Assembly: GCA_966243015.1 (NCBI GenBank) | Contig: CBIMES010000001.1 | Span: 143,995 to 207,994 of the forward strand | DNA length: 64,000 nucleotides | Direction of reading: 5' to 3' | Source: an uncultured bacterium | GTDB lineage: Bacteria; Patescibacteriota; Minisyncoccia; Phycocordibacterales; UBA6065 | Shown here: in pieces, positions 6,791-43,999 of the stretch | Position numbering within the stretch: the stretch's first letter is position 1 | Layout of the letters: every line of letters begins with the position of its first letter | Notes under the pieces: model-generated | The model's database searches: none | What the model saw: only the letters and a program-made list of their open reading frames with translations | Told to the model about the DNA's origin: nothing | Position numbers and translations under genes: made by a program

Positions 6791-7873
6791 ATGAGACACC
6801 TCACGCTCAGAGACTTCAAGAGGGAGTTCGACGCGCATCTCAGGACCTTCGTCCGTGAAAAGGCGGCTTCGGCGAAGACGCTTGCCCAGAACGAGCGCAT
6901 CGAGCAGAGCGTCGACCATGCCGTCAGCCTTATCATCGGCGGCGGCAAGCGCATCCGTCCGTACCTCGCGTACCTTATGTACGAGACCGCGGGAGGCAAG
7001 GACCCGAAAAGCATCATGCGAGCCCTGGTCGGCCTCGAGCTCTTTCACGTCTTTGCCCTCATCCACGACGACATCATCGACGAGGGCGTCGAGAGACACG
7101 GCATGCCGACCCTTCATGCCTTTTACAGGGATTCCGTCATGCCGAAAGGCAAGAAGTTCGAGCAGGTGTCCATTGGTCAGGCGATTCTCGTCGGTGACCT
7201 CATCTTCAACTGGTCCCGCGAGGCCTTCGAGGCAGGCGTCTGTCCTGCGGTGTCCGGGACGGTCTCGGCCGAGGCCGCCGTCGCCGCGCGGACGCTGTTC
7301 ACCGAGCTTGTCGATGAGGTCATCGTGGGCCAGATGATCGACGTGGACATCATGTCGCGCGACAAGGCGACCGCCACCGAGATCGAGCGCAAGAACGAGC
7401 TCAAGACCGCGCGCTACAGCTTCATACAGCCTATGCGCATCGGCGCCGCGCTCGCGAACAGGGCCGGCGAGTTCGACGAGTACGCGCGGCGCGTGGGCCT
7501 CGCGCTGGGCATGGCCTTCCAGATCCAGGACGACATGCTCGACATCATGGGCGACAGGAGGAAGACCGGGAAGGCGCTTATGAGCGATCTGGAGCAGGGC
7601 CAGCACACCTTCTTTACCCAGTACGTCTTTGACAACGGCTGCGTCGAGCACAGGGCCGCCCTCAAGGGTCTCTTTGGCCGGCCGCTGTCTGACGACGAGC
7701 GGAAGGCGGCGAAAGGACTCTTCGAGGAGTCGGGCGCTCTCACGAACGGAGTCACCCTGGTCAAGGCGTACTGCGACGACGCGACGTACGCGGTGAAGGG
7801 CGCCAAGTTCGGCGTCGCCCACGGCAGGCGCTGGTCTGAGCTCGTCGGTCTTATATCGGCCCGCACCGCCTAG
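6791..7873 (+). CDS. polyprenyl diphosphate synthase (trans-isoprenyl diphosphate synthase family)
   Basis: First and second Asp-rich motifs LIHDDIIDEG and FQIQDDMLD; 360 aa. Confidence 0.8.
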   Translation: MRHLTLRDFKREFDAHLRTFVREKAASAKTLAQNERIEQSVDHAVSLIIGGGKRIRPYLAYLMYETAGGKDPKSIMRALVGLELFHVFALIHDDIIDEGVERHGMPTLHAFYRDSVMPKGKKFEQVSIGQAILVGDLIFNWSREAFEAGVCPAVSGTVSAEAAVAARTLFTELVDEVIVGQMIDVDIMSRDKATATEIERKNELKTARYSFIQPMRIGAALANRAGEFDEYARRVGLALGMAFQIQDDMLDIMGDRRKTGKALMSDLEQGQHTFFTQYVFDNGCVEHRAALKGLFGRPLSDDERKAAKGLFEESGALTNGVTLVKAYCDDATYAVKGAKFGVAHGRRWSELVGLISARTA

Positions 7874-24192: not shown

Positions 24193-25050
24193 CTAGGGGC
24201 GTGCGGCAATCGTGAGCCTCTCCAATCCTTTCGCGTAGATATTCCAGACTTCGGAAGCGACGAGTGTCTTTGCGTATACGCGAACCTCGTCTATGTGGCC
24301 CTGGAAATATTCGCCATCCGAGCAGGCACTTGAACCCGCCTCGGCTCCGATACAGAGAGGGTTGTTTACCGCGTAGTTCACAGGACCATTGGGCGTCGCA
24401 TTTTCCGCAACCTGCTTTCCGTCGAGATAAAGCCTGATTGTATCGCCGTCATAGGTTACGAGCGCGTGATGCCATGTGTTCGGCGATATGCTCGAGATTG
24501 GCGTTTTGGCGGCGTGCCAGGTTCCCCCTACGTTGAGGAGCCCGCACAGGCCGCCCGTTCCGCCGCAAGCCACGGCCTCGTTGATGGCCAGGCTGTATCC
24601 GCCGGTTTGGGACTTGGAGATGATGCGCCTTGGACCGGTGATTGACGAAGCGTTGAACCAGGCCCCGAAGGACACTGCGGACGTTGGGGCGAGTTCGGCG
24701 GAGTGACCGATTGTGACGCGGCCGGTCGATCCATTAAGCTGAAGAGATTGCCCCGTGCCTGAATAGGTATTTGCCGAGGTGACGCTTGCTCCCGTTGAGA
24801 GTGTCCCGTTGTTACCGCCAGCTCCGTTGATCGCAGTCGTTCCCGAATCCGCGTCAAAGTCCCACATGCCGGCGACCTGGTCTCCCATGGTGCGAAACGT
24901 CTGGGCGGAGAACTGCCTCGCCGCGCCGAGGCGCGCTTTCTCGCGCGCCGAGTTGAGGCTCGCGAGGACGATGCTCGAGAGCAGGCCGATGATGGCGATG
25001 ACCACGAGGAGCTCGATGAGGGTGAAGCCCCTGTTCCGATGAGATGTCAT
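24193..25050 (-). CDS. type IV pilin-like protein with a LamG/concanavalin-A-like lectin domain
   Basis: N-terminus [26 protein letters not shown]; LamG-type signatures ([42 protein letters not shown]). Confidence 0.7.
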
Positions 25051-25181: not shown

Positions 25182-26750
25182 TTAGAGATCCCTGAACACC
25201 TCGATCTTCGCGCCGATGGCATTGAGACGATTGGCGAGGTCCTCGTATCCGCGGTTGATGTTGTAGACGTTGCGGAGCACCGACGTTCCCTCGGCCGCGA
25301 GCATGCCGAGCATTATAATCACGGACGGGCGAAGGGCGGGAGGGCAGACAATTTCGGTTGCCTTGAGCTTCGTCGGGCCTTTCACATAGAAGCGGTGCGG
25401 ATCGGCGAGGATGGTCTCGGCACGCATCTTGTCGAGTTCCTTGTAATAGATCGCTCGCTCTTCGTACACCCAGTCGTGGATGAAGGTCTGACCCTCCGCC
25501 TGCGTGCCGATGATGGCGAAGAAGGGGAGGTTGTCCATGTTGATGCCCGGGTATGGTTGAGCGTGAATCTTCTCCTCGAGGGCGACGAGCTTCGACGCGA
25601 AGGTTTGGATGTCGACGAGGTTGGTCTTGCTGTTGTCGGCCTTGTATCGCTTCACGATTTTGTACTTGAACCCCATCTTCTCGAGCTTGAGGAGCTCGAG
25701 CTCGAGGAAGTCGATGGGGCAGCGCTCGATGGTGATTGATGACTTGGTGACGATGGCCGCGGCGAGGAGTGACATTGCCTCGATGGGGTCCTCCGAGAGG
25801 AAATACTCAATGTCCTTCTTCACGCCGTTCTTGCTGCCGTCGATGCCGTGTACGGTCATGGTCGAGGTGCCGATGCCGTCGATCTTCGCGCCGAGGAGCT
25901 CGAGGTAGAAGCAGACGTCCTGGACCTGGTAGTTCGCAGAGGCGAACTTCACGGTCGTGGTGCCGGGGATGAGCGCCGCCGCCATGAGCACGGCCTCGGT
26001 CACGGTGTCTCCCGCCTCGTACATGACGACTTCGCGGTCCTTCTTGAGGCCGTCGTGCGAGACGTGGTAGTACTCTGAGCTGGTCTCGATCTTCACGCCG
26101 AGTTTCTCGAGGGCGTAGACGTACGGCTTGATGGTTCGGGAGCCGAGTCGGCAGCCTGACGCCTGAGGGAGGTCAAACTCCTTCATTCTGTGAATGAGCG
26201 AGCCGACCATCATGATGACGGAACGGGTCTTCGCCGCGGAGTCGTAGGCGATGTCCTTCATGGCGAATTTCTCGGGCGGGGTGATGTGCAGATCTGGGCC
26301 CTTCCATTCGATCTTCACGCCGATGGACTCGAGCACCTCGGCGATGCGGTTTACCTCCTCAATCTTGGGAGTGTTCTTGATGACGGTCGTGCCGCGGTTC
26401 ATGAGCGATGCGCACATGAGGCCGACGGCGCCGTTCTTCGACGTGCGCACCTTGATCGAGCCCGAGAGCTGATGTCCTCCCTCGATGCGGAAGTTGACCG
26501 TGCCACCCTTCGCGAGGGAGACGATCTCCTGGCCGAGCGCCGCCGAGAGCTTGGCGAGGGTCTCGGTCGACAGGTTCTGCTCGCCCTTCTCGATGCGGGC
26601 GATGACGGACTGGGTGGTGCCGATCTTCTCGCCGAGCTCGGTCTGGGTCATGCGCCTGTCCTCGCGGAGGCGGGCGATCATGAGGCCGATAGAGGCGAGG
26701 GCTTCGGCAGGCTTGCTCTCCTTCGCGGTTTTTTTGGTTTTGGTGGGCAT
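25182..26750 (-). CDS. murA: UDP-N-acetylglucosamine 1-carboxyvinyltransferase with an N-terminal HTH (XRE-type) domain
   Basis: ~70-aa N-terminal XRE-like HTH (RMTQTELGEKIGTTQSVIARIEKGEQNLS). A full MurA body follows, with FRIEGGHQLSGSIKV..., the conserved active-site region and the C-terminal NINRGYEDLANRLNAIGAKIE. Start placed at MPTKTKK. Confidence 0.8.
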   Translation of the reverse strand: MPTKTKKTAKESKPAEALASIGLMIARLREDRRMTQTELGEKIGTTQSVIARIEKGEQNLSTETLAKLSAALGQEIVSLAKGGTVNFRIEGGHQLSGSIKVRTSKNGAVGLMCASLMNRGTTVIKNTPKIEEVNRIAEVLESIGVKIEWKGPDLHITPPEKFAMKDIAYDSAAKTRSVIMMVGSLIHRMKEFDLPQASGCRLGSRTIKPYVYALEKLGVKIETSSEYYHVSHDGLKKDREVVMYEAGDTVTEAVLMAAALIPGTTTVKFASANYQVQDVCFYLELLGAKIDGIGTSTMTVHGIDGSKNGVKKDIEYFLSEDPIEAMSLLAAAIVTKSSITIERCPIDFLELELLKLEKMGFKYKIVKRYKADNSKTNLVDIQTFASKLVALEEKIHAQPYPGINMDNLPFFAIIGTQAEGQTFIHDWVYEERAIYYKELDKMRAETILADPHRFYVKGPTKLKATEIVCPPALRPSVIIMLGMLAAEGTSVLRNVYNINRGYEDLANRLNAIGAKIEVFRDL

Positions 26751-27035
26751 GGTTCGGTGCTTATGGGTAAGTGAGAAACAGTATAGCATATATGCTATAC
26801 ATTTAAGACGGTGCTGTGGATAAAAAAGCACGCAGGGGAGGCGTGCTGAGGGGGGTCTATCTTCTTGTGAGGGAGGCGACGATCCAGGCTGCGAGCAGGA
26901 GGGCCAGAAGGCCAGAGACGACGGACGATACGGTGAGGCCCTGCCATTTCCCGGTGTCGCACCCGTGGCTTTCGCTGGTCGATGGGGAGGGGTCGGCGTT
27001 CATTTCATCACCATAGTGCCCCCGTCGTGTCCAGA

Positions 27036-28760: not shown

Positions 28761-28833
28761 TTTCACTTTGCAAGCACCGTATCGAGGTCCCTGTCTTTGA
28801 TTGAGGATCTTTCTTCTTTGTTATACTGTCACC

Positions 28834-29502
28834 ATGTTCCAGAAAGATTCCCTCCACCACGCGTATTTCATTGAAGGAGAGCGGGCCGCGGTGCTCGCCG
28901 ACATCGAGGCGTTCCTGAGCGAGGCCTTCGGCATCGTGCGCCAGGGTCATCCTGACGTGCATTACGGCGAGTACGATTCGTTCGGCATCGACGACGGCCG
29001 CGGTCTTCAGGAGATGCAGGCGGTGCGGCCTGTGGCGGGTGACAGGAAGGTTTTTATTCTTTCCGTGGGCTCAATGACGGGGGAGGCTCAGAACTCGCTT
29101 CTCAAGGTCTTCGAGGAACCGACGCCGGGCACTCATTTCTTTGTCATTTCGACATCACGCAGGATACTCCTGCCGACCCTGCGCTCGCGCGTCATCATCA
29201 TCGCCCACGCCACCTCGAAGGAGGCGACGCTCGGTGCCGAGGCCAAGAAGTTTATTTCCTCTTCATATAAGGACCGTCTCGCTCAGGTGTCGGGCATGGT
29301 TGAGGAGAAGGACAAGGCGCTCGCCGAGGGATTCCTTCTTGCCGTCATTGACGAGCTGCGCGGTGACGGTTTGCGGGCTGTCTCGCCGGCGCGCGCCGTG
29401 GCGATCAGGGAGATCGTCTCGCTCGTGCCGTATCTCAAGGACCGCGCTCCGTCCGTGAAGCTCATTCTCGAGCGGGTGGCGTTGCTCGACTTTGATAAAT
29501 AA
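28834..29502 (+). CDS. holB: DNA polymerase III delta' subunit-like protein
   Basis: AAA+ clamp-loader-like motifs (GEAQNSLLKVFEEPTPGTHFFVIS, LLPTLRSR); a TATACT -10 box lies 6 nt upstream of the ATG. Confidence 0.7.
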   Translation: MFQKDSLHHAYFIEGERAAVLADIEAFLSEAFGIVRQGHPDVHYGEYDSFGIDDGRGLQEMQAVRPVAGDRKVFILSVGSMTGEAQNSLLKVFEEPTPGTHFFVISTSRRILLPTLRSRVIIIAHATSKEATLGAEAKKFISSSYKDRLAQVSGMVEEKDKALAEGFLLAVIDELRGDGLRAVSPARAVAIREIVSLVPYLKDRAPSVKLILERVALLDFDK

Positions 29503-29539
29503 TTGATTTTTTCCAGGGTCTTGTGGATTGTGCCTGTGA

Positions 29540-29545
29540 TATAAT
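29540..29545 (+). promoter_or_regulatory. extended -10 (TGaTATAAT) 6 nt upstream of the ATG of the giant gene; implies a leaderless transcript
   Basis: ctgTGaTATAATcacgatATG; no Shine-Dalgarno sequence is possible. Confidence 0.35.
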
Positions 29546-29551
29546 CACGAT

Positions 29552-32500
29552 ATGAAATTTAGGGTAGTGTCCTTTGTGCTTGTAGGAGCGTTACTCACAC
29601 TTGCGCCGCTTTTTTCTCATGCGCAGGAAAGGGGAGGCGCCTCTCTCTTCTTCTGCAAGGTGTTTTCGATTTTCACCAAAGCCGACTGTTCTCCGTCGGC
29701 TGATTCTGCCACCGCTGAAATTACCCAAGCCCCGTTGCTGCCGTCTCCGTCGGGCGAGGGGTCTAAGCCTTCCTCTGTCGTAACCAATGTTGCGGATTCG
29801 GATTCCCCGGCACGCGAGGTTTCGTCTGGCGTCGGCCCTTATCCCTCGCTGAGCCGTTCGGACGTTCAATCGATGATCGATTCCTCGATCGAGCGATTGC
29901 CCGCACCCACAACCGTGTCTCCCTCGGAGCCCTCGGTCCAGACGGTTGTCTATCGATCGTCCTCGGCCCAGGGCGACTCTATCGTGAGCGCCTCCGCCCG
30001 CATGGTTTCCGACCTTAGGGCCGACATCCAGGAAGGGAGGGTCTCTGTGCCTCTGTCAGCCGTGTCTGGTCAGTCTTCCGTGCTCTCGGGTGACGCTGAG
30101 CTCGCGAACGCTACCAGCACCACGTTCTTCTCGACCGTCGGGCGCTTTGCGACGGGTGTTGTGGACACCCTGTCCTCGGCGGTTGCGACTATAGCGAGTC
30201 TGTTCGTCGAGAATCTCACTGCCACCAACGCAACGTCTACCAATTCCGTTGTCACGGGAGGCCTGTCTGCCGGTTCCCTCAGCCTCGGCACCGCTCTCGC
30301 GGTGACAAGCGGAGGAACGGGTGCGTCTGACGCGTCTTCCGCGAGACTTAACCTTGGCTTGGCCTATGCCACGTCCTCGGACATATCGGCAACGCTTTTC
30401 AATAACATTGCCACATGGGGAGACAGTCTGACCGCAGGTGCTGGCGGCACACCCTACCCGACGCAGCTTGCCAGTCTTACGGGTGCTACCGTCTATAACG
30501 GGGGCGTCGGTGGCGAGACGAGCACTCAGATAAAGGCCCGAATGCTCGCCGCGACCGACAAACACGCCCATCCGACGATAATTTGGGCAGGAAGGAATAA
30601 TTACAGCTCTCCCGAAACCGTCAAAGCTGACATCGCCGAGATGGTTGCGGCTCTCGGGCACAATAATTATCTGATCATTGGCGTGATCAATGGCAATTAC
30701 CCGAGTGAGTATTCTGGGGGAGCGGGACACACGCTTATAACAAATCTTAACAGCGACCTGTCCGAAACGTATGGCTCCCGTTTCATCGACATGCGTCAGT
30801 ATCTTGTCTCGCTGTACGACTCGGGGATTCCGCAGGACGTTACTGACCATGACAATGACATCGTGCCGAGCTCTCTTCGTTCGGATAGTATCCATTTGAC
30901 CACGGCGGGTTATTTGGCGGTTGCGCAGAGAATATATCAGGATATCAGTGTCCTTAGGTCGGGAGCGACTGGATCGGTTGTAAATCCTCAGACTCTTCAG
31001 TATGCGTTTTCAAACCCGTTTCCCATCGGCGCAACTACTCGCGCCGGGGGTTACTTCAGCCAGGTGGGCGTGGGAACATCGACGCCCGCGCGAGCTCTTT
31101 CCGTTGTGGGCGGCGACGTGGAGATAGATCAATCAAGATTCTATTACGCAAAGGACGCCAGCGGTAACAGTGTGAGGGTCGCCGGTGTCTCGGGAAGCAA
31201 TCTGTTCTTGGGAGGAAGCTATGTCAGCAACCTGTATCTCGGCACGGGGTTCACGGGCCAGTCTCAGGCTCTTACGATTGCGAACGGTGGTTCCGTGGGA
31301 GTCGGAACGACCACTCCTTCTGCGAGGCTTTCCGTGACGGGCGCTGCTGGCAGCGGCGATATTTTCGCTGTTGCCTCGTCAACCAACGCTCGGCTTCTGA
31401 CGGTGACAAGCGCTGGTGCGCTCGGTGTTGGAACGAGTTCGCCCTCCGCACTCCTCTCTGTCTCTGGGTCTTCCGCGTTTGCGGGTCTCGCGACGTTTTC
31501 TTCCAATGTTTTCATGACGGGAGGAAGTCTGTACCTGCAGTCCTCTGGAGCTGGGTTCTATCTTCCCGGAAACGGAGGAATCGCGGGAAATAACGGGGCA
31601 ATCAATCTTACTGCTGCTGGCACTAATCAGAACATCACCCTCACGCCGAGCGGCACGGGAGCTGTTGGAATCGGCACCACCACGCCGTCAGCAAGGCTCG
31701 CCGTAACGGGAACCGCGGGAACGAGTGACATATTCGCGCTCGCGTCCTCGACGAACGCGAGGGTCCTCACGGTCAATAGCGCTGGAAACAGCTTCTTCGG
31801 TGGCAACATCTCGGCGACCGGAACTATTGCCTCAAACATGGGTTCTGGGAACGGACAGGCGCTCACGGTTATCACAGACGGAAGTACGAGGTATGCGAAC
31901 CTTGCCTTCAACGAGGTTGCGTCCAACAAGGCTTTGATTTCATGGATTGGTTCTGGCGCTGGGCTGGGCGCTCGAAACAACACCCTCGAGCTTGCGGCCG
32001 AGAATTCGGGTAGCGACATAGCGTTCAGGACTGGCGGGGCAACTAAAATGATCCTTACTGACGGTGGCCTGCTAGGCATAGGAACCACGACGCCGTCGAC
32101 CGCACTCGATGTGGTGGGTGTGGTGAACGCGTCTGGAGGTTACACCTATAACACGTCTAGCAGCGGATCGGGACTTACCGTGAACACCACGGCGAATACG
32201 ACATACAACAACATATCCTTCACCGAGAACTCGTCGCTTCGATCGCTCATATCGTGGATCGGCTCGAACGCGGGCCTCGGGACGAGGAACAACACCCTTG
32301 AGCTTTCCGCGGAGGCGTCTGGAGGTGATATAGCGCTCCGCGCGGGAAACGCGACGAGGCTGTTCGTGGACGCTGGTGGAAACGTTGGCGTGGGCACGCT
32401 CACCCCAGGGGCGAAGCTCGACGTGGGTGGATCGGTCAAGGCGACGTCATACGCGCGAGGTGTAGCGACCACGACGTCGCAGCTCGTGTTTGACGGAGAC

Positions 32501-32719
32501 TCTATGACCTTCGGATACGGCCTCACCACCCCATACCCGAACCTGGTAACCACGACCCATACGTTCAGCAGGTACAACACCGCTGTCTCTGGCCGAACCG
32601 TTCTCGACATGATACTCAACGCGACGACCAGCGTTGACGCAAGACTCTCCGACAGGGCCCGCGAGAACATCGTGGTCGTATGGGGGGGGGAATCAACAGT
32701 ATGGCGCTCGAGGGAATAA
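29552..32719 (+). CDS. giant secreted SGNH-esterase / tail-fibre-repeat protein, N-terminal 1,055 codons (frame interrupted in a G9 tract)
   Basis: Signal peptide; Ser/Pro-rich linker; SGNH domain 1 (block I NIATWGDSLTAGAGG, block V DSIHLT); at least five V/LG[IV]GTTTPSARLxVTG repeats; start of SGNH domain 2 (FDGDSMTFGYG). Terminates 29 nt after a G9 run. Confidence 0.8.
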   Translation: MKFRVVSFVLVGALLTLAPLFSHAQERGGASLFFCKVFSIFTKADCSPSADSATAEITQAPLLPSPSGEGSKPSSVVTNVADSDSPAREVSSGVGPYPSLSRSDVQSMIDSSIERLPAPTTVSPSEPSVQTVVYRSSSAQGDSIVSASARMVSDLRADIQEGRVSVPLSAVSGQSSVLSGDAELANATSTTFFSTVGRFATGVVDTLSSAVATIASLFVENLTATNATSTNSVVTGGLSAGSLSLGTALAVTSGGTGASDASSARLNLGLAYATSSDISATLFNNIATWGDSLTAGAGGTPYPTQLASLTGATVYNGGVGGETSTQIKARMLAATDKHAHPTIIWAGRNNYSSPETVKADIAEMVAALGHNNYLIIGVINGNYPSEYSGGAGHTLITNLNSDLSETYGSRFIDMRQYLVSLYDSGIPQDVTDHDNDIVPSSLRSDSIHLTTAGYLAVAQRIYQDISVLRSGATGSVVNPQTLQYAFSNPFPIGATTRAGGYFSQVGVGTSTPARALSVVGGDVEIDQSRFYYAKDASGNSVRVAGVSGSNLFLGGSYVSNLYLGTGFTGQSQALTIANGGSVGVGTTTPSARLSVTGAAGSGDIFAVASSTNARLLTVTSAGALGVGTSSPSALLSVSGSSAFAGLATFSSNVFMTGGSLYLQSSGAGFYLPGNGGIAGNNGAINLTAAGTNQNITLTPSGTGAVGIGTTTPSARLAVTGTAGTSDIFALASSTNARVLTVNSAGNSFFGGNISATGTIASNMGSGNGQALTVITDGSTRYANLAFNEVASNKALISWIGSGAGLGARNNTLELAAENSGSDIAFRTGGATKMILTDGGLLGIGTTTPSTALDVVGVVNASGGYTYNTSSSGSGLTVNTTANTTYNNISFTENSSLRSLISWIGSNAGLGTRNNTLELSAEASGGDIALRAGNATRLFVDAGGNVGVGTLTPGAKLDVGGSVKATSYARGVATTTSQLVFDGDSMTFGYGLTTPYPNLVTTTHTFSRYNTAVSGRTVLDMILNATTSVDARLSDRARENIVVVWGGESTVWRSRE

Positions 32720-34098
32720 CGCCGGTCGCAACGTATAACGAGCTGGTGGCGTATGCTCGAGAGCGAAGGGCGGCGGGATTCAAGGTGATCATAGGCACGA
32801 TGGTCTCTCGAACTGGCTCAAACGGCAACGGAACGTTCGACTCGCAGAAGAACACCTACAACGCGCTCATCAGGGCGAATTGGGCAAATTTCGCCGACGG
32901 CATAGCCGACCTCGCTGGCGATGCACGCCTCGGGGCAGACGGTGCGTACTCTAACTTGACGTATTTCCAGGCGGACGGAATTCATATCAATGACACGGGT
33001 GCGGCAATAGTGGCGGGAATCGTATCTACGGCGATTGATCGCCTGACGGAGGGGAACGTGAAGGACCTGAACGACCTGTACGTCACTGGGAAGATGGGTA
33101 TCGGCACGACGTCTCTATCTGAAAAGCTCTCTGTCGCTGGTAACATAATTGTTACCAACGGTTCACGAATATACGGCTTTGATTCGTCTGGTAATAAGGC
33201 TGTCATAGCTCAGATTGCCGCCGGGCTGAACGATCTCTATCTCGGCGGTAGCTACGTTGGCAACCTGTATCTTGGTACGGGTGCGGGGACTCAAAGGGTG
33301 ACTGTCACCAACGGCGGAAACGTTGGTATCGGCACCACCACCCCTTCCGCCCAGCTCACCACTTCGGGCACCGTCCGCTTCGCCTCGCTTGGCTCTGCGG
33401 GCGCGAACCTCATCACGGACTCGCTCGGCAACGTCACTGTTTCCTCTGACGAGAGGCTTAAGGACGTGCAGGGGGAATTCGCGAGGGGCCTCAGCGACAT
33501 TTCCAAGATTAAGCCGATCACGTACAAGTGGAACGCCGTGTCGGGCATGGAGACCTCCGGTCTCTATACGGGATTCTCTGCTCAGAACGTGCAGTCATCC
33601 ATACCCGAGGCAGTCGCGACAGACTCGCGAGGGTACCTTACCCTTTCCGACAGGCCGATTCTGGCGGCGGTCGTCAACGCCCTCAAGGAGCTTTCGGCAA
33701 AGGTTGACGGCATCATGTCCTCGAATTTCACCTATGTGAACGAGGCGTCGATCGGCGTCCTCAACGTCGGCAAGCTTAACATCCAGGGCGACATCTGCGT
33801 CGATAACGTGTGTATCACGAAAGAGCAGTTCAAGAGCATCTTCACGCAGAACGGCTCGACGGTGTACATGCCTCAGCCTGTGCAGGATACGTCTTCAGAG
33901 GCAGAGGGCCTCGTTCCCACCGAGACCGCCTCGAGCACCTCGGACGTTCCGGATACGTCGAGCGCGTCTTCGACGTCCGAGGAGGCGCCTTCCTCGGTCG
34001 ACGCCGAGGTCGCGTCTTCGACGCCTCCTGCGGAGGAGGTCGTTTCAGGGGATTCTGAGCCCCAGGAATCCGAGACCCCGGGCGCGCCCGTTGAATAA
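32680..34098 (+). CDS. giant secreted protein, C-terminal 472 codons (continuation in the -1 frame)
   Basis: Rest of SGNH domain 2 (GGINS block III-like, DGIHINDTG block V); more GIGTT repeats. Then the phage tail-spike intramolecular-chaperone (Peptidase_S74-like) domain (SSDERLKDVQGEF...ITYKWN...GFSAQNVQSSIPEAV...ILAAVVNALKELSAKVDG) and an S/T/E-rich tail. Confidence 0.8.
   Translation: MGGGINSMALEGITPVATYNELVAYARERRAAGFKVIIGTMVSRTGSNGNGTFDSQKNTYNALIRANWANFADGIADLAGDARLGADGAYSNLTYFQADGIHINDTGAAIVAGIVSTAIDRLTEGNVKDLNDLYVTGKMGIGTTSLSEKLSVAGNIIVTNGSRIYGFDSSGNKAVIAQIAAGLNDLYLGGSYVGNLYLGTGAGTQRVTVTNGGNVGIGTTTPSAQLTTSGTVRFASLGSAGANLITDSLGNVTVSSDERLKDVQGEFARGLSDISKIKPITYKWNAVSGMETSGLYTGFSAQNVQSSIPEAVATDSRGYLTLSDRPILAAVVNALKELSAKVDGIMSSNFTYVNEASIGVLNVGKLNIQGDICVDNVCITKEQFKSIFTQNGSTVYMPQPVQDTSSEAEGLVPTETASSTSDVPDTSSASSTSEEAPSSVDAEVASSTPPAEEVVSGDSEPQESETPGAPVE
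32682..32690 (+). repeat. G9 homopolymeric tract at the frame break of the giant gene
   Basis: tatGGGGGGGGGaatc; G7 or G10 would restore a single ORF reading VVVWGG(G)INSMALEG. Confidence 0.9.
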
Positions 34099-34107
34099 GA
34101 AGGTCTC

Positions 34108-34689
34108 ATGAATACTCAGAAAGGATTCACCCTCATCGAGCTCCTCGTCGTCATTGCCATCATCGCGCTTCTCTCGAGCGTGGTTTTATCGTCTCTTAAT
34201 ACGGCTCGCGCTAAATCCCGCGACGCGTTGCGCATGTCCCAGATGAATCAAGTGATGAGCGCCCTCGAGATGTATTACGCCAAATACGGCTCATACCCCT
34301 ATGGAAACAGTGGCTCGCTTAATACCGAGGGCGCGAGGAATAATTCGTGCAATAATGCGGGGTCGAGCCTGGGTGAGCCGATGGGCGAGTGGGATAACGT
34401 GATGCAGCTCCTCGTGAACGAGGGGTTCTTGGGCGGCATTCCGCGCGATCCGATCAATACGGGCTATGCGAGCACAGGGAACAGCAGGTGCTACAAGTAT
34501 TCCTCCTACACGGCTGATGACGGCCTGTACAGGCGCTGCAGCACAAACGCGGTCGGCGACAGGGATATCCCTATACGCAACTACGGCTACGTCCTTATGT
34601 TCTCCTCCGAGGCAACAACCTTCAAATACCCGCTTTCTGGTTGGCCAGTCAACATCTATACGTATTGCGTTCTTGGCCCTGCAAAATAG
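34108..34689 (+). CDS. type IV pilin-like protein
   Basis: N-terminus [24 protein letters not shown]; 193 aa; 10 nt downstream of the giant gene. Confidence 0.7.
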   Translation: MNTQKGFTLIELLVVIAIIALLSSVVLSSLNTARAKSRDALRMSQMNQVMSALEMYYAKYGSYPYGNSGSLNTEGARNNSCNNAGSSLGEPMGEWDNVMQLLVNEGFLGGIPRDPINTGYASTGNSRCYKYSSYTADDGLYRRCSTNAVGDRDIPIRNYGYVLMFSSEATTFKYPLSGWPVNIYTYCVLGPAK

Positions 34690-39563: not shown

Positions 39564-40109
39564 TTAGTAACTTGACGATGATCCGGTTCCTCCGGCGTCT
39601 GCCTCGCAGAGTACTCCGTTGGTTCCCGTGTTCGTCAGCGTACTTCCTCCGGGGCAGCTGGTCGCGTTTGCTATGGTGAAATAGATGGTCGCGCGGGTGC
39701 ACCTTCCCGAGGATACCGTGTTGCAGAAATAAAGCGGTCCGGCGTACGACTGGCCCGAGATGGTTACGGTCGGGTTGGTCGACGCCCTGCGTACGTAAGT
39801 TGTCGTAAGCGAGGAGAGGTCGCCCGCGGTGCTTGGGGCAAGGGTTGTCCCCGCAAAGGAGCAGTTGTTGTTGCCGAGGCAGTGGTATGACTGGTTCCCT
39901 GGGTAAGGGAAGTTGCCCGAATCGGTGGTGAACATCTGCACCGCGGTCTGGAGGGACCTTTTCTCGGCGAGCACTTTCGCGTTTGCCGCCCTGGCGCGCG
40001 CCGTGTTCACGCTCGACAGTACTACGCTCGAGAGGAGGGAGATGATCGAGATGACGACGAGGAGCTCGATGAGGGTGAAGCCTCTGGCCCTGCTTCCGTG
40101 TGTGTTCAT
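39564..40109 (-). CDS. type IV pilin-like protein
   Basis: N-terminus [28 protein letters not shown]; two Cys pairs in the C-terminal domain. Confidence 0.7.
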   Translation of the reverse strand: MNTHGSRARGFTLIELLVVISIISLLSSVVLSSVNTARARAANAKVLAEKRSLQTAVQMFTTDSGNFPYPGNQSYHCLGNNNCSFAGTTLAPSTAGDLSSLTTTYVRRASTNPTVTISGQSYAGPLYFCNTVSSGRCTRATIYFTIANATSCPGGSTLTNTGTNGVLCEADAGGTGSSSSY

Positions 40110-43726: not shown

Positions 43727-43750
43727 GTCGCCCCCCCCAATTTCAATATC

Positions 43751-43999
43751 ATGAGACTACTTTTCAACATCATCCTCGTCGTCTCGATCCTCTTTATGCC
43801 GTGGTGGGTGACTGCCGCTGTTATTCTCGCGTCCTGCGCCCTCGTGCCGCGCTTCTATGAGGCCATGGTGTACGGTATTGTCATTGATGCTCTGTACGCG
43901 ACGCCTGCCGGCTTTCACGGCTTTGCGTACGTTTGGACCGCCTTTTCCGTCGCCGTCTTCCTCGTGGCGGGCTTCCTCAGGAGCAGGCTCTCTTGGTAA
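43751..43999 (+). CDS. mreD: putative MreD-like small membrane protein
   Basis: 82 aa with three hydrophobic helices, positioned between mreC and pbp2. Confidence 0.45.
   Translation: MRLLFNIILVVSILFMPWWVTAAVILASCALVPRFYEAMVYGIVIDALYATPAGFHGFAYVWTAFSVAVFLVAGFLRSRLSW

What the first reader, a model, noticed from the sequence alone, without database searches (positions are those of the whole stretch)
29552..34098. Giant (~1,500-aa) secreted protein combining two SGNH/GDSL esterase domains, tail-fibre-like repeats and a phage tail-spike intramolecular-chaperone domain
Read directly from the translation: signal peptide; a ~250-aa Ser/Pro/Val-rich linker; SGNH domain 1 (NIATWGDSLTAGAGG ... DSIHLT); five or more degenerate ~55-aa repeats built on V/LG[IV]GTTTPSARL[AS]VTG...IFA[LV]ASSTNAR[LV]LTV; a second SGNH domain (FDGDSMTFGYG ... 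GGINS ... DGIHINDTG); two more GIGTT repeats; then SSDERLKDVQGEF...ITYKWN...GFSAQNVQSSIPEAV...ILAAVVNALKELSAKVDG. That last stretch matches the conserved SDxRxK / GFxAQ(E)V / PEAV / A[IV]KEL blocks of the auto-cleaving C-terminal chaperone domain of phage endosialidases and tail fibres (Peptidase_S74 family). No other phage genes are nearby (the upstream gene is holB, the downstream one a pilin). It therefore looks like a chromosomal, domesticated tail-fibre-type adhesin armed with two carbohydrate esterase domains. Its position next to a type IV pilin and in a pilin-rich genome fits a cell-cell or host-attachment role, for example an episymbiont deacetylating a partner's surface glycans. This combination is not a described system as far as I know.
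Basis: partly seen in the sequence, partly recalled or inferred. Interest (0 to 1): 0.85.

Follow-up and report, generated by a model that had tools for sequence, protein, structure and literature searches.

The report
Frameshifted phage-like esterase fibre gene
A tiny symbiotic-type (CPR/Paceibacterota) bacterium carries, among housekeeping genes, a phage-tail-fibre-like surface protein with two esterase domains and a self-cleaving folding domain, but the gene is broken by a run of nine Gs whose length differs between assemblies, so it may be switched on and off by slippage.

Summary
Pfam finds two GDSL/SGNH esterase domains and a C-terminal Peptidase_S74 chaperone domain. There are eight fibre "capping-loop" motifs, and the flanking genes are housekeeping genes.

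The "giant protein" is not one ORF, however. ORF A (29552-32719, 1055 aa) and ORF B (32680-34098, 472 aa) lie in different frames. They join only if the G9 run at 32682-32690 becomes G7 or G10. That run sits in catalytic block III of the second esterase.

Five verified contigs from four other samples are otherwise identical over up to 15 kb but carry G8, which is also out of frame. No in-frame allele exists in the 15-billion-protein collection.

A homologous Yonathbacteria gene has a poly-G run in its signal peptide, with in-frame (G10) and out-of-frame (G11, G8TGG) alleles in different assemblies.

The architecture is not new in kind:
- It recurs in dozens of Paceibacterota proteins and in Bradyrhizobium.
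- Its fibre motifs match the Bdellovibrio MAT fibres described in 2024.
- SGNH esterases are already known in phage tail fibres.

Best reading: an accessory, phage-derived, enzyme-bearing surface fibre caught in an OFF state. It is either phase-variable (about 0.45) or a recent pseudogene (about 0.3).

The parts
29537..29545 (+). TGaTATAAT, an extended -10-like element ending 6 nt before the ATG. It may be the gene's own promoter, giving a leaderless or near-leaderless mRNA.
   Evidence: Read directly from the sequence. The consensus scan did not report it because there is no -35 match. Inference only.
29552..32719 (+). ORF A, 1055 aa as assembled. It holds the signal peptide, N-terminal stalk, SGNH esterase 1, fibre region 1 and the first third of SGNH esterase 2, and then runs out of frame to a stop.
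   Evidence: It is identical to database protein P0001. Pfam gives Lipase_GDSL_2 at 55.2 bits.
29552..29623 (+). Predicted Sec signal peptide, aa 1-24: MKFRVVSFVLVGALLTLAPLFSHA, followed by QE.
   Evidence: Read from the translation. The same layout occurs in orthologue P0002. No signal-peptide predictor was available.
29624..30391 (+). N-terminal stalk, aa 25-280. It is a lineage-specific Ser/Pro/Val-rich region with two Cys residues. This is followed by a conserved segment (about aa 183-235) and then the collar motif SGGTGA...ARLNLGL (aa 244-270).
   Evidence: No Pfam hit. A scan of 1.84 billion representatives finds relatives only for about aa 160-280; nothing matches aa 1-160 except its own cluster. 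Identity to P0002 is 50%.
30392..30961 (+). SGNH/GDSL esterase domain 1, aa 281-470. Ser292 (GDS), Asn349 (GRNN) and Asp445/His448 (DSIH) are intact.
   Evidence: Pfam PF13472, best stretch aa 290-454. The catalytic columns are invariant in a 20-sequence alignment. Identity is 60-71% in the closest homologues, and 50 of 53 homologues match the domain. Residues were checked.
30962..32476 (+). Fibre region 1, aa 471-975. It carries six capping-loop motifs (xG[IV]GT..P..L) and internal duplications.
   Evidence: The motif aligns to the repeats of Bdellovibrio Bd2133 (PDB 8OND) and to MyRF (7DC3). PHROG 18345, a tail fibre family, also matches.
32477..33075 (+). SGNH/GDSL esterase domain 2, aa 976-1175 of the joined protein. 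Ser984 (GDS) lies in ORF A. Asn1049 and Asp1142/His1145 (DGIH) lie in ORF B. The frameshift splits the domain.
   Evidence: The joined domain scores 45.5 bits (G10) or 49.7 bits (G7) against a Pfam cut-off of 32.9. The ORF B part alone scores 18.2 bits. Only two distant homologues were found. The AlphaFold model is unusable, with pLDDT 46.8.
32682..32690 (+). G9 homopolymer, the site of the frame change. G7 or G10 would give one ORF. Other assemblies have G8.
   Evidence: It is the longest homopolymer in the window. G8 is present in L002-L005 and L070, and in L002, L003 and L005 it is the only difference (L004 adds 2 and L070 4 mismatches) over 4.8-15.2 kb. The C8 control run at 43731-43738 is invariant in three other assemblies.
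32680..34098 (+). ORF B, 472 aa as assembled. It holds the rest of SGNH 2, fibre region 2, the S74 chaperone domain and a C-terminal extension. It has no signal peptide of its own and no obvious Shine-Dalgarno sequence.
   Evidence: It is in the collection as P0081. Pfam gives Peptidase_S74 at 36.8 bits.
33076..33438 (+). Fibre region 2, aa 1176-1296, with two capping-loop motifs. It is a duplicate of the module that follows SGNH 1.
   Evidence: aa 504-617 with 1181-1289, 44% identity. One search shows the alignment to 8OND.
33439..33720 (+). Peptidase_S74 intramolecular chaperone / autoprotease domain, about aa 1297-1390. It starts SSDERLK, with predicted nucleophile Ser1299 (33445-33447) and Lys1304 (33460-33462).
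   Evidence: Pfam PF13884. Ser and Lys are invariant in 19 sequences. In the AlphaFold model, blocks of 10 residues give a mean pLDDT of 85-95 for this core. The best Foldseek PDB hits are 7DC3 (MyRF ICA, E 1.9e-5), then 3GW6 and 3GUD.
33721..34098 (+). C-terminal extension that would be released together with the chaperone. It holds a conserved Cys pair (GDICVDNVCITKEQF) and an acidic Ser/Thr/Pro/Glu-rich tail, followed by the stop codon.
   Evidence: The LCVxxxC[VI]TxxQ motif is conserved in most of the 19 aligned homologues and lies outside the Pfam model.
34108..34689 (+). Type IV pilin / pseudopilin gene starting 9 nt after the fibre gene. This is context; the two genes may be co-transcribed.
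   Evidence: Pfam N_methyl and NCBIfam IV_pilin_GFxxxE. In the relative L071 the pilin directly follows holB and there is no fibre gene.

Best explanation
The locus encodes an accessory cell-surface fibre of a Paceibacterota (CPR/Patescibacteria) bacterium, assembled from phage tail-fibre modules.

**Inferred mode of action**
1. A Sec signal peptide exports the protein.
2. A lineage-specific Ser/Pro-rich stalk would hold it at the cell.
3. The body is a trimeric beta-helical fibre with MAT-type capping loops, carrying two SGNH esterase domains.
4. The C-terminal S74 intramolecular chaperone would drive trimerisation. It would then cut itself off at Ser1299 using Lys1304, releasing the last ~217 residues.
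5. By analogy with SGNH-bearing phage receptor-binding proteins and with Bdellovibrio MAT fibres, the mature fibre would bind a surface glycan on another cell and remove ester (probably O-acetyl) groups from it.

**State of the gene**
In the sequence as sampled, the gene is OFF. A poly-G run inside the second esterase domain is G9 here and G8 in other assemblies. Both lengths break the frame before the chaperone domain. The most likely meaning is slipped-strand phase variation, i.e. a contingency locus: G7 or G10 restores the full fibre, while G8 or G9 gives a truncated secreted protein without the chaperone, which probably cannot fold.

**What is shown and what is inferred**
- Shown: domain identities, catalytic residues, chromosomal context, the frameshift, and the tract-length differences between assemblies.
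- Inferred: trimer formation, autocleavage, the glycan substrate, and real ON/OFF switching.

**Sub-confidences**
- S74-terminated SGNH fibre outside any prophage: about 0.9.
- Out of frame in the sampled populations: about 0.85.
- Genuinely phase-variable: about 0.45.
For: **Identity of the protein**
- Pfam finds GDSL (two stretches) and Peptidase_S74. PHROG tail-fibre families match.
- The SGNH1 catalytic residues are invariant. The S74 Ser/Lys dyad is invariant.
- The S74 model's best structural matches are MyRF ICA and the endosialidase chaperone.
- The fibre repeats align to Bdellovibrio Bd2133 (8OND) and MyRF. Both carry the capping-loop motif described in PMC10769870.

**Context**
- The neighbours are PriA, pilin, MurA, MreB, HolB | fibre | pilin, RRF, RseP.
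- A positional orthologue, P0002, lies upstream of RRF/RseP in another genome.
- Other CPR members also lie among housekeeping genes.
- The MreB protein places the organism in Paceibacterota/Patescibacteria.
- The gene is accessory: it is absent between holB and the pilin in relatives L071/L072.

**Frameshift and tract variation**
- The frame breaks at a G9 run.
- Five checked contigs (from four samples) carry G8; nine contigs in all encode the G8-type product. In L002, L003 and L005 it is the only difference over up to 15,187 bp.
- The C8 control run is stable across assemblies.
- A homologous Yonathbacteria fibre gene carries a poly-G run in its signal peptide. It is G10 (in frame, 1197 aa with signal peptide) in L068 and L138, G11 (out of frame) in L008, and G8TGG (out of frame) in L069. 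These contigs are 99.9% identical otherwise.
Against: - No in-frame allele (G7 or G10) of this gene exists in the 15-billion-protein collection, and the JGI metagenome scan found none. Both observed lengths are OFF.
- A G/C run of 8 or more is not statistically unusual for this composition: 3 observed against 3.07 expected.
- Such runs are not significantly enriched in CPR fibre genes: 2 in 30 kb against 2 in 131 kb, p = 0.16.
- Length differences at long homopolymers can come from sequencing or assembly error. No read-level data were available.
- The tract lies at 69% of the gene, not near the 5' end.
- The gene is dispensable, since a relative lacks it. That fits decay as well as it fits switching.
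- The enzymatic substrate, trimer formation and autocleavage are all untested.
Confidence: 0.45

Rival explanations
1. The gene is a recent pseudogene. An accessory fibre gene has been inactivated by a one-base expansion in a G run and is on its way to being lost. The G8/G9 difference is drift, or noise, in a gene that is already dead.
For: - Every assembly found is out of frame.
- No ON allele turned up anywhere.
- A related species lacks the gene entirely at this locus.
- The tract disrupts a catalytic block in mid-gene rather than the 5' end.
Against: - Apart from the tract, both ORFs are fully open over 1055 + 472 codons, with all catalytic residues intact.
- The only polymorphism over up to 15 kb in three of the five contigs is the tract itself.
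- An unrelated position in a homologous Yonathbacteria gene shows the same kind of poly-G, with both in-frame and out-of-frame alleles. That is hard to explain by decay alone.
Confidence: 0.3
2. The frameshift is a sequencing or assembly artefact. The true tract is G7 or G10, and the organism encodes one intact protein of about 1515 aa.
For: - Long G homopolymers are error-prone in short-read data (general knowledge).
- Coverage of the contigs is low, about 5-9x.
- The joined protein is a perfect SGNH domain by Pfam.
Against: - Five checked contigs (four samples, two assembly sources) all give G8, and the GenBank assembly gives G9. None gives an in-frame length.
- A C8 run 11 kb away assembles identically everywhere.
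- Random error around a true G7 or G10 should sometimes give the true length.
Confidence: 0.1
3. The gene uses programmed recoding. Either -1 ribosomal frameshifting on G GGG GGG, or RNA-polymerase slippage on the G run, would produce some full-length protein from the out-of-frame allele.
For: - In the G9 allele, the run in the ORF A frame reads G GGG GGG. A -1 slip there would give exactly ...VVVWGGGINS..., read from the sequence.
- Homopolymer slippage by RNA polymerase is known in other bacteria (general knowledge).
Against: - There is no stimulatory RNA structure downstream: z = -0.31 against shuffled sequences.
- The G8 and G9 alleles need shifts in opposite directions, so a single programmed mechanism cannot serve both.
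- The tract is not conserved in orthologue P0002 or in SGNH2 relatives.
Confidence: 0.08
4. The gene is an ordinary tail-fibre gene of an integrated prophage or tailocin.
For: PHROG tail-fibre hits. The SGNH1 module occurs at 50-62% identity in predicted viral contigs.
Against: - There are no phage structural, lysis or integration genes within about 10 kb on either side. All neighbours are housekeeping genes.
- The protein has a Sec signal peptide.
- Other CPR members have the same non-phage context.
Confidence: 0.02

Closest known systems
Bdellovibrio bacteriovorus MAT (mosaic adhesive trimeric) fibres, S74 subgroup, e.g. Bd3182; Bd2133 structure 8OND (Caulton et al. 2024, PMC10769870)
   Same: - Both are chromosomal genes outside prophages, with signal peptides, encoding ~1000+ aa proteins in a bacterium that lives on other bacteria.
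- Both have a beta-helical fibre with the same capping-loop motif. Here GNVGIGTTTPSAQL aligns to Bd2133 GNVGIGATAPTAKL.
- Both end in an S74 chaperone with an SDxxxK dyad.
- Both show a mosaic pattern of conserved ends and a variable middle or tip.
   Different: - The conserved ~130-aa beta-rich MAT N-terminal domain was not detected. Residues 1-160 have no relatives outside their own cluster.
- Two SGNH esterase domains are inserted in the fibre. The MAT paper's supplements do not contain the words GDSL, SGNH, lipase or hydrolase.
- The host is a CPR bacterium rather than a Gram-negative predator.
- The gene carries a frameshifting poly-G tract.
Phage tail fibres / tailspikes carrying SGNH esterase domains (PHROG 11419; Acinetobacter phage tail fibres, PMC11058221; phage Aristophanes deacetylase tailspike, PMC8471582)
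   Same: - An SGNH esterase is embedded in a fibre or spike protein.
- SGNH1 matches PHROG 11419 at E 1.4e-28.
- It matches tail-fibre or minor-tail genes of cultured phages at 30-40% identity and predicted viral contigs at 50-62%.
- The known role in phages is removal of acetyl groups from capsule or O-antigen receptors.
   Different: - This gene is not part of a virion gene cluster, and it has a Sec signal peptide.
- It has two esterase domains.
- None of the top 20 viral-contig ORFs carrying this SGNH type also had both the S74 marker (GFxAQ) and the capping-loop motif, by a crude motif search.
C-terminal intramolecular chaperone domain of endosialidases and tail fibres (Peptidase_S74; PDB 3GW6, 3GUD) and the MyRF ICA domain (7DC3)
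   Same: - The Pfam score is above the cut-off.
- The Ser/Lys dyad is invariant.
- The predicted fold matches 7DC3 (E 1.9e-5, probability 1.0), followed by 3GW6 and 3GUD.
   Different: Here the domain is followed by an extra conserved Cys-pair motif and an acidic low-complexity tail, neither covered by the Pfam model. Autocleavage is not shown.
Poly-G/C contingency (phase-variable) loci of Campylobacter, Neisseria, Haemophilus and Helicobacter (general knowledge)
   Same: A homopolymeric G tract lies inside a surface-protein gene, and its length sets the reading frame. Tract length differs between otherwise identical assemblies.
   Different: - Variation within a population has not been shown at the read level.
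- Only OFF lengths are seen for this gene.
- No paper in the searched library combines phase variation, homopolymeric and Patescibacteria.

Membership tests
SGNH/GDSL hydrolase (Pfam PF13472) - domain 1 | Profile score above the curated cut-off | tested here: met
   ORF A as a whole scores 55.2 bits against a cut-off of 32.9; the best stretch is aa 290-454.
SGNH/GDSL hydrolase (Pfam PF13472) - domain 1 | Catalytic blocks: GDS Ser (block I), Gly (block II), GxN Asn (block III), DxxH (block V) | tested here: met
   Ser292, Gly318, Asn349 and Asp445/His448 are present. Ser, Gly, Asp and His are invariant and Asn349 is conserved in at least 90% of a 20-sequence alignment.
SGNH/GDSL hydrolase (Pfam PF13472) - domain 2 | A complete domain encoded in one reading frame | tested here: not met
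   As assembled, the domain is split at block III by the G9 frameshift. The ORF B part alone scores 18.2 bits, below the 32.9 cut-off. Joined in silico it scores 45.5 bits (G10) or 49.7 bits (G7), with Ser984, Asn1049 and Asp1142/His1145 present.
SGNH/GDSL hydrolase | Esterase activity and its substrate | not testable with these tools
   This needs a biochemical assay. The AlphaFold model of domain 2 was too poor to use, with pLDDT 46.8.
Peptidase_S74 / C-terminal intramolecular chaperone domain | Profile score above the curated cut-off | tested here: met
   34.7-36.8 bits against a cut-off of 22, covering profile positions 1-57 of 58.
Peptidase_S74 / C-terminal intramolecular chaperone domain | Ser-Lys catalytic dyad in an SDxxxK motif | tested here: met
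   The motif is S1299-D-E-R-L-K1304. Ser and Lys are invariant in a 19-sequence alignment.
Peptidase_S74 / C-terminal intramolecular chaperone domain | Chaperone-domain fold | tested here: met
   By 10-residue blocks the AlphaFold core has a mean pLDDT of 85-95. The best Foldseek PDB hits are 7DC3 (E 1.9e-5, TM 0.64 normalised to the target), then 3GW6 and 3GUD. This was a monomer model only.
Peptidase_S74 / C-terminal intramolecular chaperone domain | Trimerisation-dependent autocleavage at the Ser | not testable with these tools
   Needs expression of the wild-type fragment against S1299A or K1304A mutants.
Bdellovibrio-type MAT fibre family (PMC10769870) | Signal peptide and a large (~1000 aa) fibre protein encoded outside prophages | tested here: met
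   The signal peptide was read from the sequence. The flanks are housekeeping genes.
Bdellovibrio-type MAT fibre family (PMC10769870) | Capping-loop motif (V-G-G/N-pi-x-x-P-x-x-x-L) repeated along a beta-helical fibre | tested here: met
   There are eight copies. They align to three repeats of Bd2133 (8OND) and to MyRF. The beta-helix itself was not modelled.
Bdellovibrio-type MAT fibre family (PMC10769870) | Conserved ~130-aa beta-rich N-terminal domain directly after the signal peptide | tested here: not met
   There is no Pfam hit for aa 1-284. An HMMER scan of 1.84 billion representatives found no relatives of aa 1-160 beyond the protein's own cluster. The region is Ser/Pro-rich and low in complexity. 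This was tested by sequence only; no structure comparison was possible.
Bdellovibrio-type MAT fibre family (PMC10769870) | Surface display and a role in contact with other cells | not testable with these tools
   Needs microscopy or genetics on a co-culture.
Phase-variable (contingency) locus | A simple-sequence tract inside the ORF whose length sets the reading frame | tested here: met
   The G9 run at 32682-32690. G7 or G10 is in frame; G8 or G9 is out of frame.
Phase-variable (contingency) locus | Tract-length polymorphism among otherwise identical genomes | tested here: inconclusive
   The window has G9, while five other contigs have G8; it is the only difference in three of them and the only indel in all five. 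The C8 control is stable. This compares assemblies only, however, so sequencing error cannot be excluded without reads.
Phase-variable (contingency) locus | Both ON and OFF alleles observed | tested here: not met
   For this gene, no in-frame allele exists in the collection or in JGI contigs. For the homologous Yonathbacteria gene the feature is met: G10 is ON; G11 and G8TGG are OFF.
Prophage / tailocin tail fibre | Embedded in a cluster of phage structural, lysis or integration genes | tested here: not met
   All ten neighbouring genes are cellular housekeeping or pilin genes. The same holds in L001, L052 and L068.

The most novel reading that the evidence does not exclude
CPR/Paceibacterota bacteria may use a family of phage-derived, enzyme-armed S74 fibres as host-recognition organelles, analogous to phage receptor-binding proteins and Bdellovibrio MAT fibres. 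They may switch these fibres on and off through poly-G slippage. That would be the first contingency (phase-variation) loci reported in the Candidate Phyla Radiation. It would also offer a genomic handle on the unknown host range of Parcubacteria.
Probability: 0.3. Interest if true: 0.8.

Novelty: new variant of a known kind. Interest (0 to 1): 0.55.

Why it matters
How Parcubacteria/Paceibacterota attach to partner cells, and which partners they use, is largely unknown.

This work points to a widespread family of secreted fibres in these organisms. The fibres combine the Bdellovibrio MAT-type scaffold, a self-cleaving S74 chaperone and phage-type SGNH esterases. That gives concrete candidate host-recognition and surface-modifying proteins to test.

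If the poly-G tracts really switch, they would show that ultra-small symbionts use classical contingency-locus genetics to vary their surface. They could also be used as read-level markers of population heterogeneity in metagenomes.

If the gene is instead a fresh pseudogene, the locus still documents rapid gain and loss of these fibres between close relatives.

The case also carries a practical warning. The automatic annotation splits the gene into a "lipase" and an "S74" protein, which hides the architecture.

Tried and rejected
- **AlphaFold of SGNH domain 2 across the frameshift.** Only a three-sequence alignment was available. The model had pLDDT 46.8 and was unusable, so no fold search was run.
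- **Homologues of SGNH2.** Only two were found. One supports the G7-length junction (GGxN) and the other the G10 length, so the ancestral in-frame length stays undecided.
- **Statistical enrichment of the G run.** It is not significant. Runs of 8 or more G/C occur 3 times against 3.07 expected from shuffles. In CPR fibre genes the count is 2 in 30 kb against 2 in 131 kb elsewhere, p = 0.16. This was not used as evidence.
- **Programmed -1 frameshifting.** There is no downstream RNA structure, z = -0.31. Rejected as the main explanation.
- **Split or garbled homologues P0016 (L066) and P0025 (L067).** Their frame breaks are not at homopolymers. Assembly error was suspected but not checked. They were not counted as phase variation.
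- **Locating the source contig.** The look-up of encoding contigs with P0001 found nothing on record. The source genome was also not among the GTDB species representatives scanned. The organism is therefore named only at the Paceibacterota/Patescibacteria level, from MreB relatives.
- **JGI metagenome scan for other tract lengths of this gene.** No hits.
- **NCBIfam.** It has no model for either ORF.
- **Paralogues.** None were found in the 64-kb window.
- **First large protein alignment.** It failed internally and was redone in two parts.
- **Literature.** Searches found no paper linking Patescibacteria with Peptidase_S74 or with phase variation.

Full report
**1. What is in the sequence**

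Between 29552 and 34098 on the + strand there are two long ORFs, not one.
- ORF A is 29552-32719 (1055 aa).
- ORF B is 32680-34098 (472 aa).

They overlap by 40 nt and lie in different frames. The frame change falls in a run of nine G at 32682-32690, the longest homopolymer in the 64-kb window. Adding one G (G10) or removing two (G7) gives a single ORF of 1515 or 1514 aa. The junction then reads VVVWGG(G)INS, which is block III of a second SGNH esterase domain.

**2. Domain content**

On the joined protein, Pfam finds Lipase_GDSL_2 in two stretches (E 2.5e-21) and Peptidase_S74 at aa 1299-1355 (34.7 bits against a cut-off of 22).

Scanned alone, SGNH domain 2 scores 45.5 bits (G10) or 49.7 bits (G7) against a cut-off of 32.9. 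As assembled, the ORF B half scores only 18.2 bits.

PHROGs returns tail-fibre families for SGNH1 (phrog_11419, 1.4e-28), for the repeat region (phrog_18345) and for the C-terminus (phrog_9942, phrog_33119).

The catalytic residues are all present and were checked against window coordinates:
- SGNH1: Ser292, Asn349, Asp445/His448.
- SGNH2: Ser984, Asn1049, Asp1142/His1145.

In a 19-sequence alignment of the C-terminal region, the Ser and Lys of SSDERLK (Ser1299, Lys1304) are invariant. An AlphaFold model of aa 1236-1430 has block-mean pLDDT of 85-95 over the S74 core. Its best PDB matches are the MyRF ICA domain 7DC3 (E 1.9e-5, probability 1.0), followed by the endosialidase chaperone 3GW6 and then 3GUD.

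The repeat description needs correcting. The core motif xG[IV]GT..P..L occurs eight times, at aa 505, 582, 624, 705, 841, 945, 1182 and 1258. There are also three pairs of longer duplications. One of these is a ~115-aa module that follows each of the two esterase domains (504-617 with 1181-1289).

**3. Context and organism**

The neighbours are PriA, a LamG-type pilin, an HTH-MurA fusion, MreB and HolB upstream. Downstream are a type IV pilin (9 nt after the stop), RRF, RseP and a flavin amine oxidase. There are no phage genes, and no paralogue occurs elsewhere in the window.

The closest named relatives of the MreB protein are Candidatus Paceibacterota and Patescibacteria-group MAGs, at 88-91% identity. 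ORF A is in GenBank/ENA on a 493,814-bp contig.

**4. Relatives**

A search with the joined protein returned 79 relatives. Many combine PF13472 with PF13884, and often also the Ig-like PF16403. The named ones come from Paceibacterota, Nomurabacteria, Kaiserbacteria and Yonathbacteria MAGs.

- *Positional orthologue.* P0002 (1138 aa, GCA_002838085.1) lies upstream of the same RRF / RseP / amine-oxidase genes. It shares the N-terminal 280 aa (50% identity), SGNH1 (61%) and the C-terminal S74 region (77-82%). Its middle is different and it has no second esterase. The family is thus mosaic, with conserved ends and a swappable interior.
- *SGNH1.* This is the most conserved module: 60-71% identity in the closest hits, with 50 of 53 sequences matching.
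- *SGNH2.* It has only two distant homologues.
- *Other CPR members.* They also lie among housekeeping genes. In Kaiserbacteria L052 the neighbours are an ABC-F protein and MetK. In Yonathbacteria L068 they are L25, a transglycosylase and BipA.
- *Absence in a relative.* In L071/L072 (MreB 99% identical in protein, 77-90% nucleotide identity), holB is followed directly by the pilin and there is no fibre gene. The gene is therefore accessory.
- *Spread of the SGNH1 module.* It is not limited to CPR. It occurs at 40-63% identity as small 220-400-aa proteins in Bacteroidota, Verrucomicrobiota and Proteobacteria. It also occurs as SGNH + S74 + Ig proteins of 1016-1286 aa in Bradyrhizobium, in L010 next to a serine recombinase and a DnaG-type zinc-ribbon protein. 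It is present in 62 predicted viral contigs at up to 62% identity.
- *Cultured phages.* These match only at 30-40% identity, always in tail-fibre or minor-tail genes.

**5. Comparison with what is known**

The best PDB sequence hit of the C-terminal region is Bd2133 (8OND). Three of its repeats align to GNVGIGTTTPSAQL. Next come a phage tail fibre with S74 (8JOV) and MyRF (7DC3).

Caulton et al. 2024 (PMC10769870) describe 21 Bdellovibrio MAT fibres. These are signal-peptide-bearing trimeric proteins of about 1000 aa, displayed on the predator's surface. Thirteen of them end in an S74 domain with SDxxxK. They carry a capping-loop motif, V-G-G/N-pi-x-x-P-x-x-x-L, that is also found in MyRF. All share a conserved ~130-aa beta-rich N-terminal domain. 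The supplements of that paper list S74-like relatives in other predators. A search of them found no GDSL, SGNH, lipase or hydrolase term and no CPR organism among the two Candidatus entries.

The protein here shares the scaffold logic, the motif and the S74 end. Its first 160 residues, however, have no relatives beyond their own cluster among 1.84 billion representatives. I therefore describe it as MAT-like, not as a member of the MAT family in the strict sense.

SGNH esterases in phage fibres and spikes, including a proven capsule deacetylase, are documented.

No paper in the library links Patescibacteria with Peptidase_S74 or with phase variation. NCBIfam has no model for either ORF.

**6. 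The frameshift**

*This gene.* Independent assemblies carry the same locus with G8 instead of G9: ENA ERZ27393942, ERZ27394172 and ERZ27394141, and Logan SRR16817062 and SRR16817059. Nine contigs encode the G8-type product. G8 gives ORFs of 1061 + 465 aa. In alignments of 4.8-15.2 kb the tract is the only difference, except for 2 mismatches in L004 and 4 in L070.

Both lengths are out of frame. Neither in-frame protein exists in the 15-billion-sequence collection, and a pattern scan of JGI metagenomes found no further copies. As an internal control, the C8 run at 43731-43738 is C8 in three other assemblies.

*The Yonathbacteria homologue.* The equivalent fibre gene (L008, MHUW01000003.1) has a poly-G run inside its signal-peptide coding region. 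The lengths seen are:
- G11 in the GenBank MAG: out of frame, so the annotated protein starts at an internal Met.
- G10 in L068 and in JGI contig L138: in frame, giving P0089 of 1197 aa starting MNPRRVIFVLTLSLILGGG.
- G8TGG in L069: out of frame.

These contigs are 99.9% identical over 7.7-9.5 kb, and the tract accounts for the only indel between L068 and L008.

Two unrelated positions in two homologous CPR fibre genes thus carry long G runs that differ between assemblies.

*Evidence against over-reading this.*
- Runs of 8 or more are not enriched relative to shuffled sequence.
- They are not significantly enriched in fibre genes relative to their flanks (p = 0.16).
- All comparisons are between assemblies, not reads.
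- For the gene in this window only OFF lengths are seen.
- Programmed -1 frameshifting is possible on paper for the G9 allele. It has no downstream structure (z = -0.31), and it cannot serve the G8 allele.

**7. Conclusion**

The thing itself is an accessory, chromosomally encoded, phage-derived surface fibre of a Paceibacterota bacterium. It is MAT-like in scaffold, carries two SGNH esterase domains and ends in an S74 chaperone.

In every sampled assembly it is interrupted at a poly-G tract. I rank the explanations as follows:
- Phase-variable contingency locus caught OFF: 0.45.
- Recent pseudogene: 0.30.
- Assembly artefact: 0.10.
- Recoding: 0.08.
- Prophage fibre: 0.02.

The proposed function, binding and de-esterifying a partner cell's surface glycan, rests on analogy only.

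It is a new variant of known kinds (MAT-type S74 fibres and SGNH-bearing phage receptor-binding proteins), not a categorically new system. Its main value is as a candidate host-interaction factor for CPR bacteria, and possibly as a first contingency locus in that group. A read-level tract census would settle the question.

Noticed in passing
L008 1120-1180 (Candidatus Yonathbacteria MHUW01000003.1); L068 3049-3058; L069 2994-3004; L138 2857-2866: A homologous CPR fibre gene has a poly-G run inside its signal peptide. The run is G11 (out of frame), G10 (in frame, twice) or G8TGG (out of frame) in contigs that are 99.9% identical. GenBank annotates the out-of-frame version from an internal Met, as a protein of 1147 aa.
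   Followed up: yes
L071 9059-10310 and L072 1230-2481, compared with window 28801-34689: In a related species (MreB 99% identical in protein), holB is followed directly by the pilin gene. The 4.5-kb fibre gene is absent. In L001 the fibre gene is present but the pilin is not. The holB-RRF interval is therefore a variable hotspot.
   Followed up: partly
window 33775-33825 (aa 1409-1425) and homologues in alignment A5: A conserved Cys-pair motif (LCVxxxC[VI]TxxQ[FL]) lies about 100 residues after the S74 cleavage site in most family members. It is outside the Pfam S74 model and is followed by an acidic Ser/Thr/Pro/Glu tail. Its function is unknown. It would be released together with the chaperone.
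   Followed up: no
window 29537-29545: TGaTATAAT, an extended -10-like element, ends 6 nt before the fibre gene's ATG. This suggests the gene has its own promoter and a leaderless or near-leaderless transcript.
   Followed up: no
window 43731-43738: This C8 run is the second-longest homopolymer in the window. It is intergenic, between the mreC stop (43726) and the start of an 82-aa membrane protein at 43751 (provisionally mreD, from its position only). It is identical in three other assemblies and was used as a control.
   Followed up: yes
L030 2535-13903 (Geminisphaera colitermitum TAV2, NZ_ABEA03000099.1): There are eight poly-C/G runs of 8-19 nt within 14.5 kb. One is a C13 run at 6863-6875, in the start of a small SGNH1-type esterase gene. 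These are either real hypervariable tracts or artefacts of an old assembly.
   Followed up: no
L010 6089-9139 (Bradyrhizobium sp. LTSP885); L066, L067: The SGNH + fibre + S74 (+ Ig-like) architecture also occurs outside CPR. There it lies next to a DnaG-type zinc-ribbon protein, DUF3768, a serine recombinase and defence-type genes (GmrSD, HEPN, Eco57I). This suggests carriage on an integrative element.
   Followed up: partly
window 24193-25050 (-), 34108-34689 (+), about 39564-40109 (-): At least three prepilin-type genes lie in the 64-kb window. One carries a LamG/concanavalin-like domain. The N-terminal pilin segment at about 34130-34190 is 87% identical in DNA to 40021-40083.
   Followed up: partly
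window 25182-26831 (-): MurA (EPSP_synthase-fold enolpyruvyl transferase) is fused to an N-terminal Cro/C1-type HTH domain. The same fusion is present in the relatives L002 and L071.
   Followed up: no
L013 and L025 (Candidatus Paceibacterota bacterium cluster1_bin.423): One Paceibacterota MAG carries two different large fibre genes with the SGNH1 module. Some genomes therefore have several copies, as with the multi-copy MAT family.
   Followed up: no
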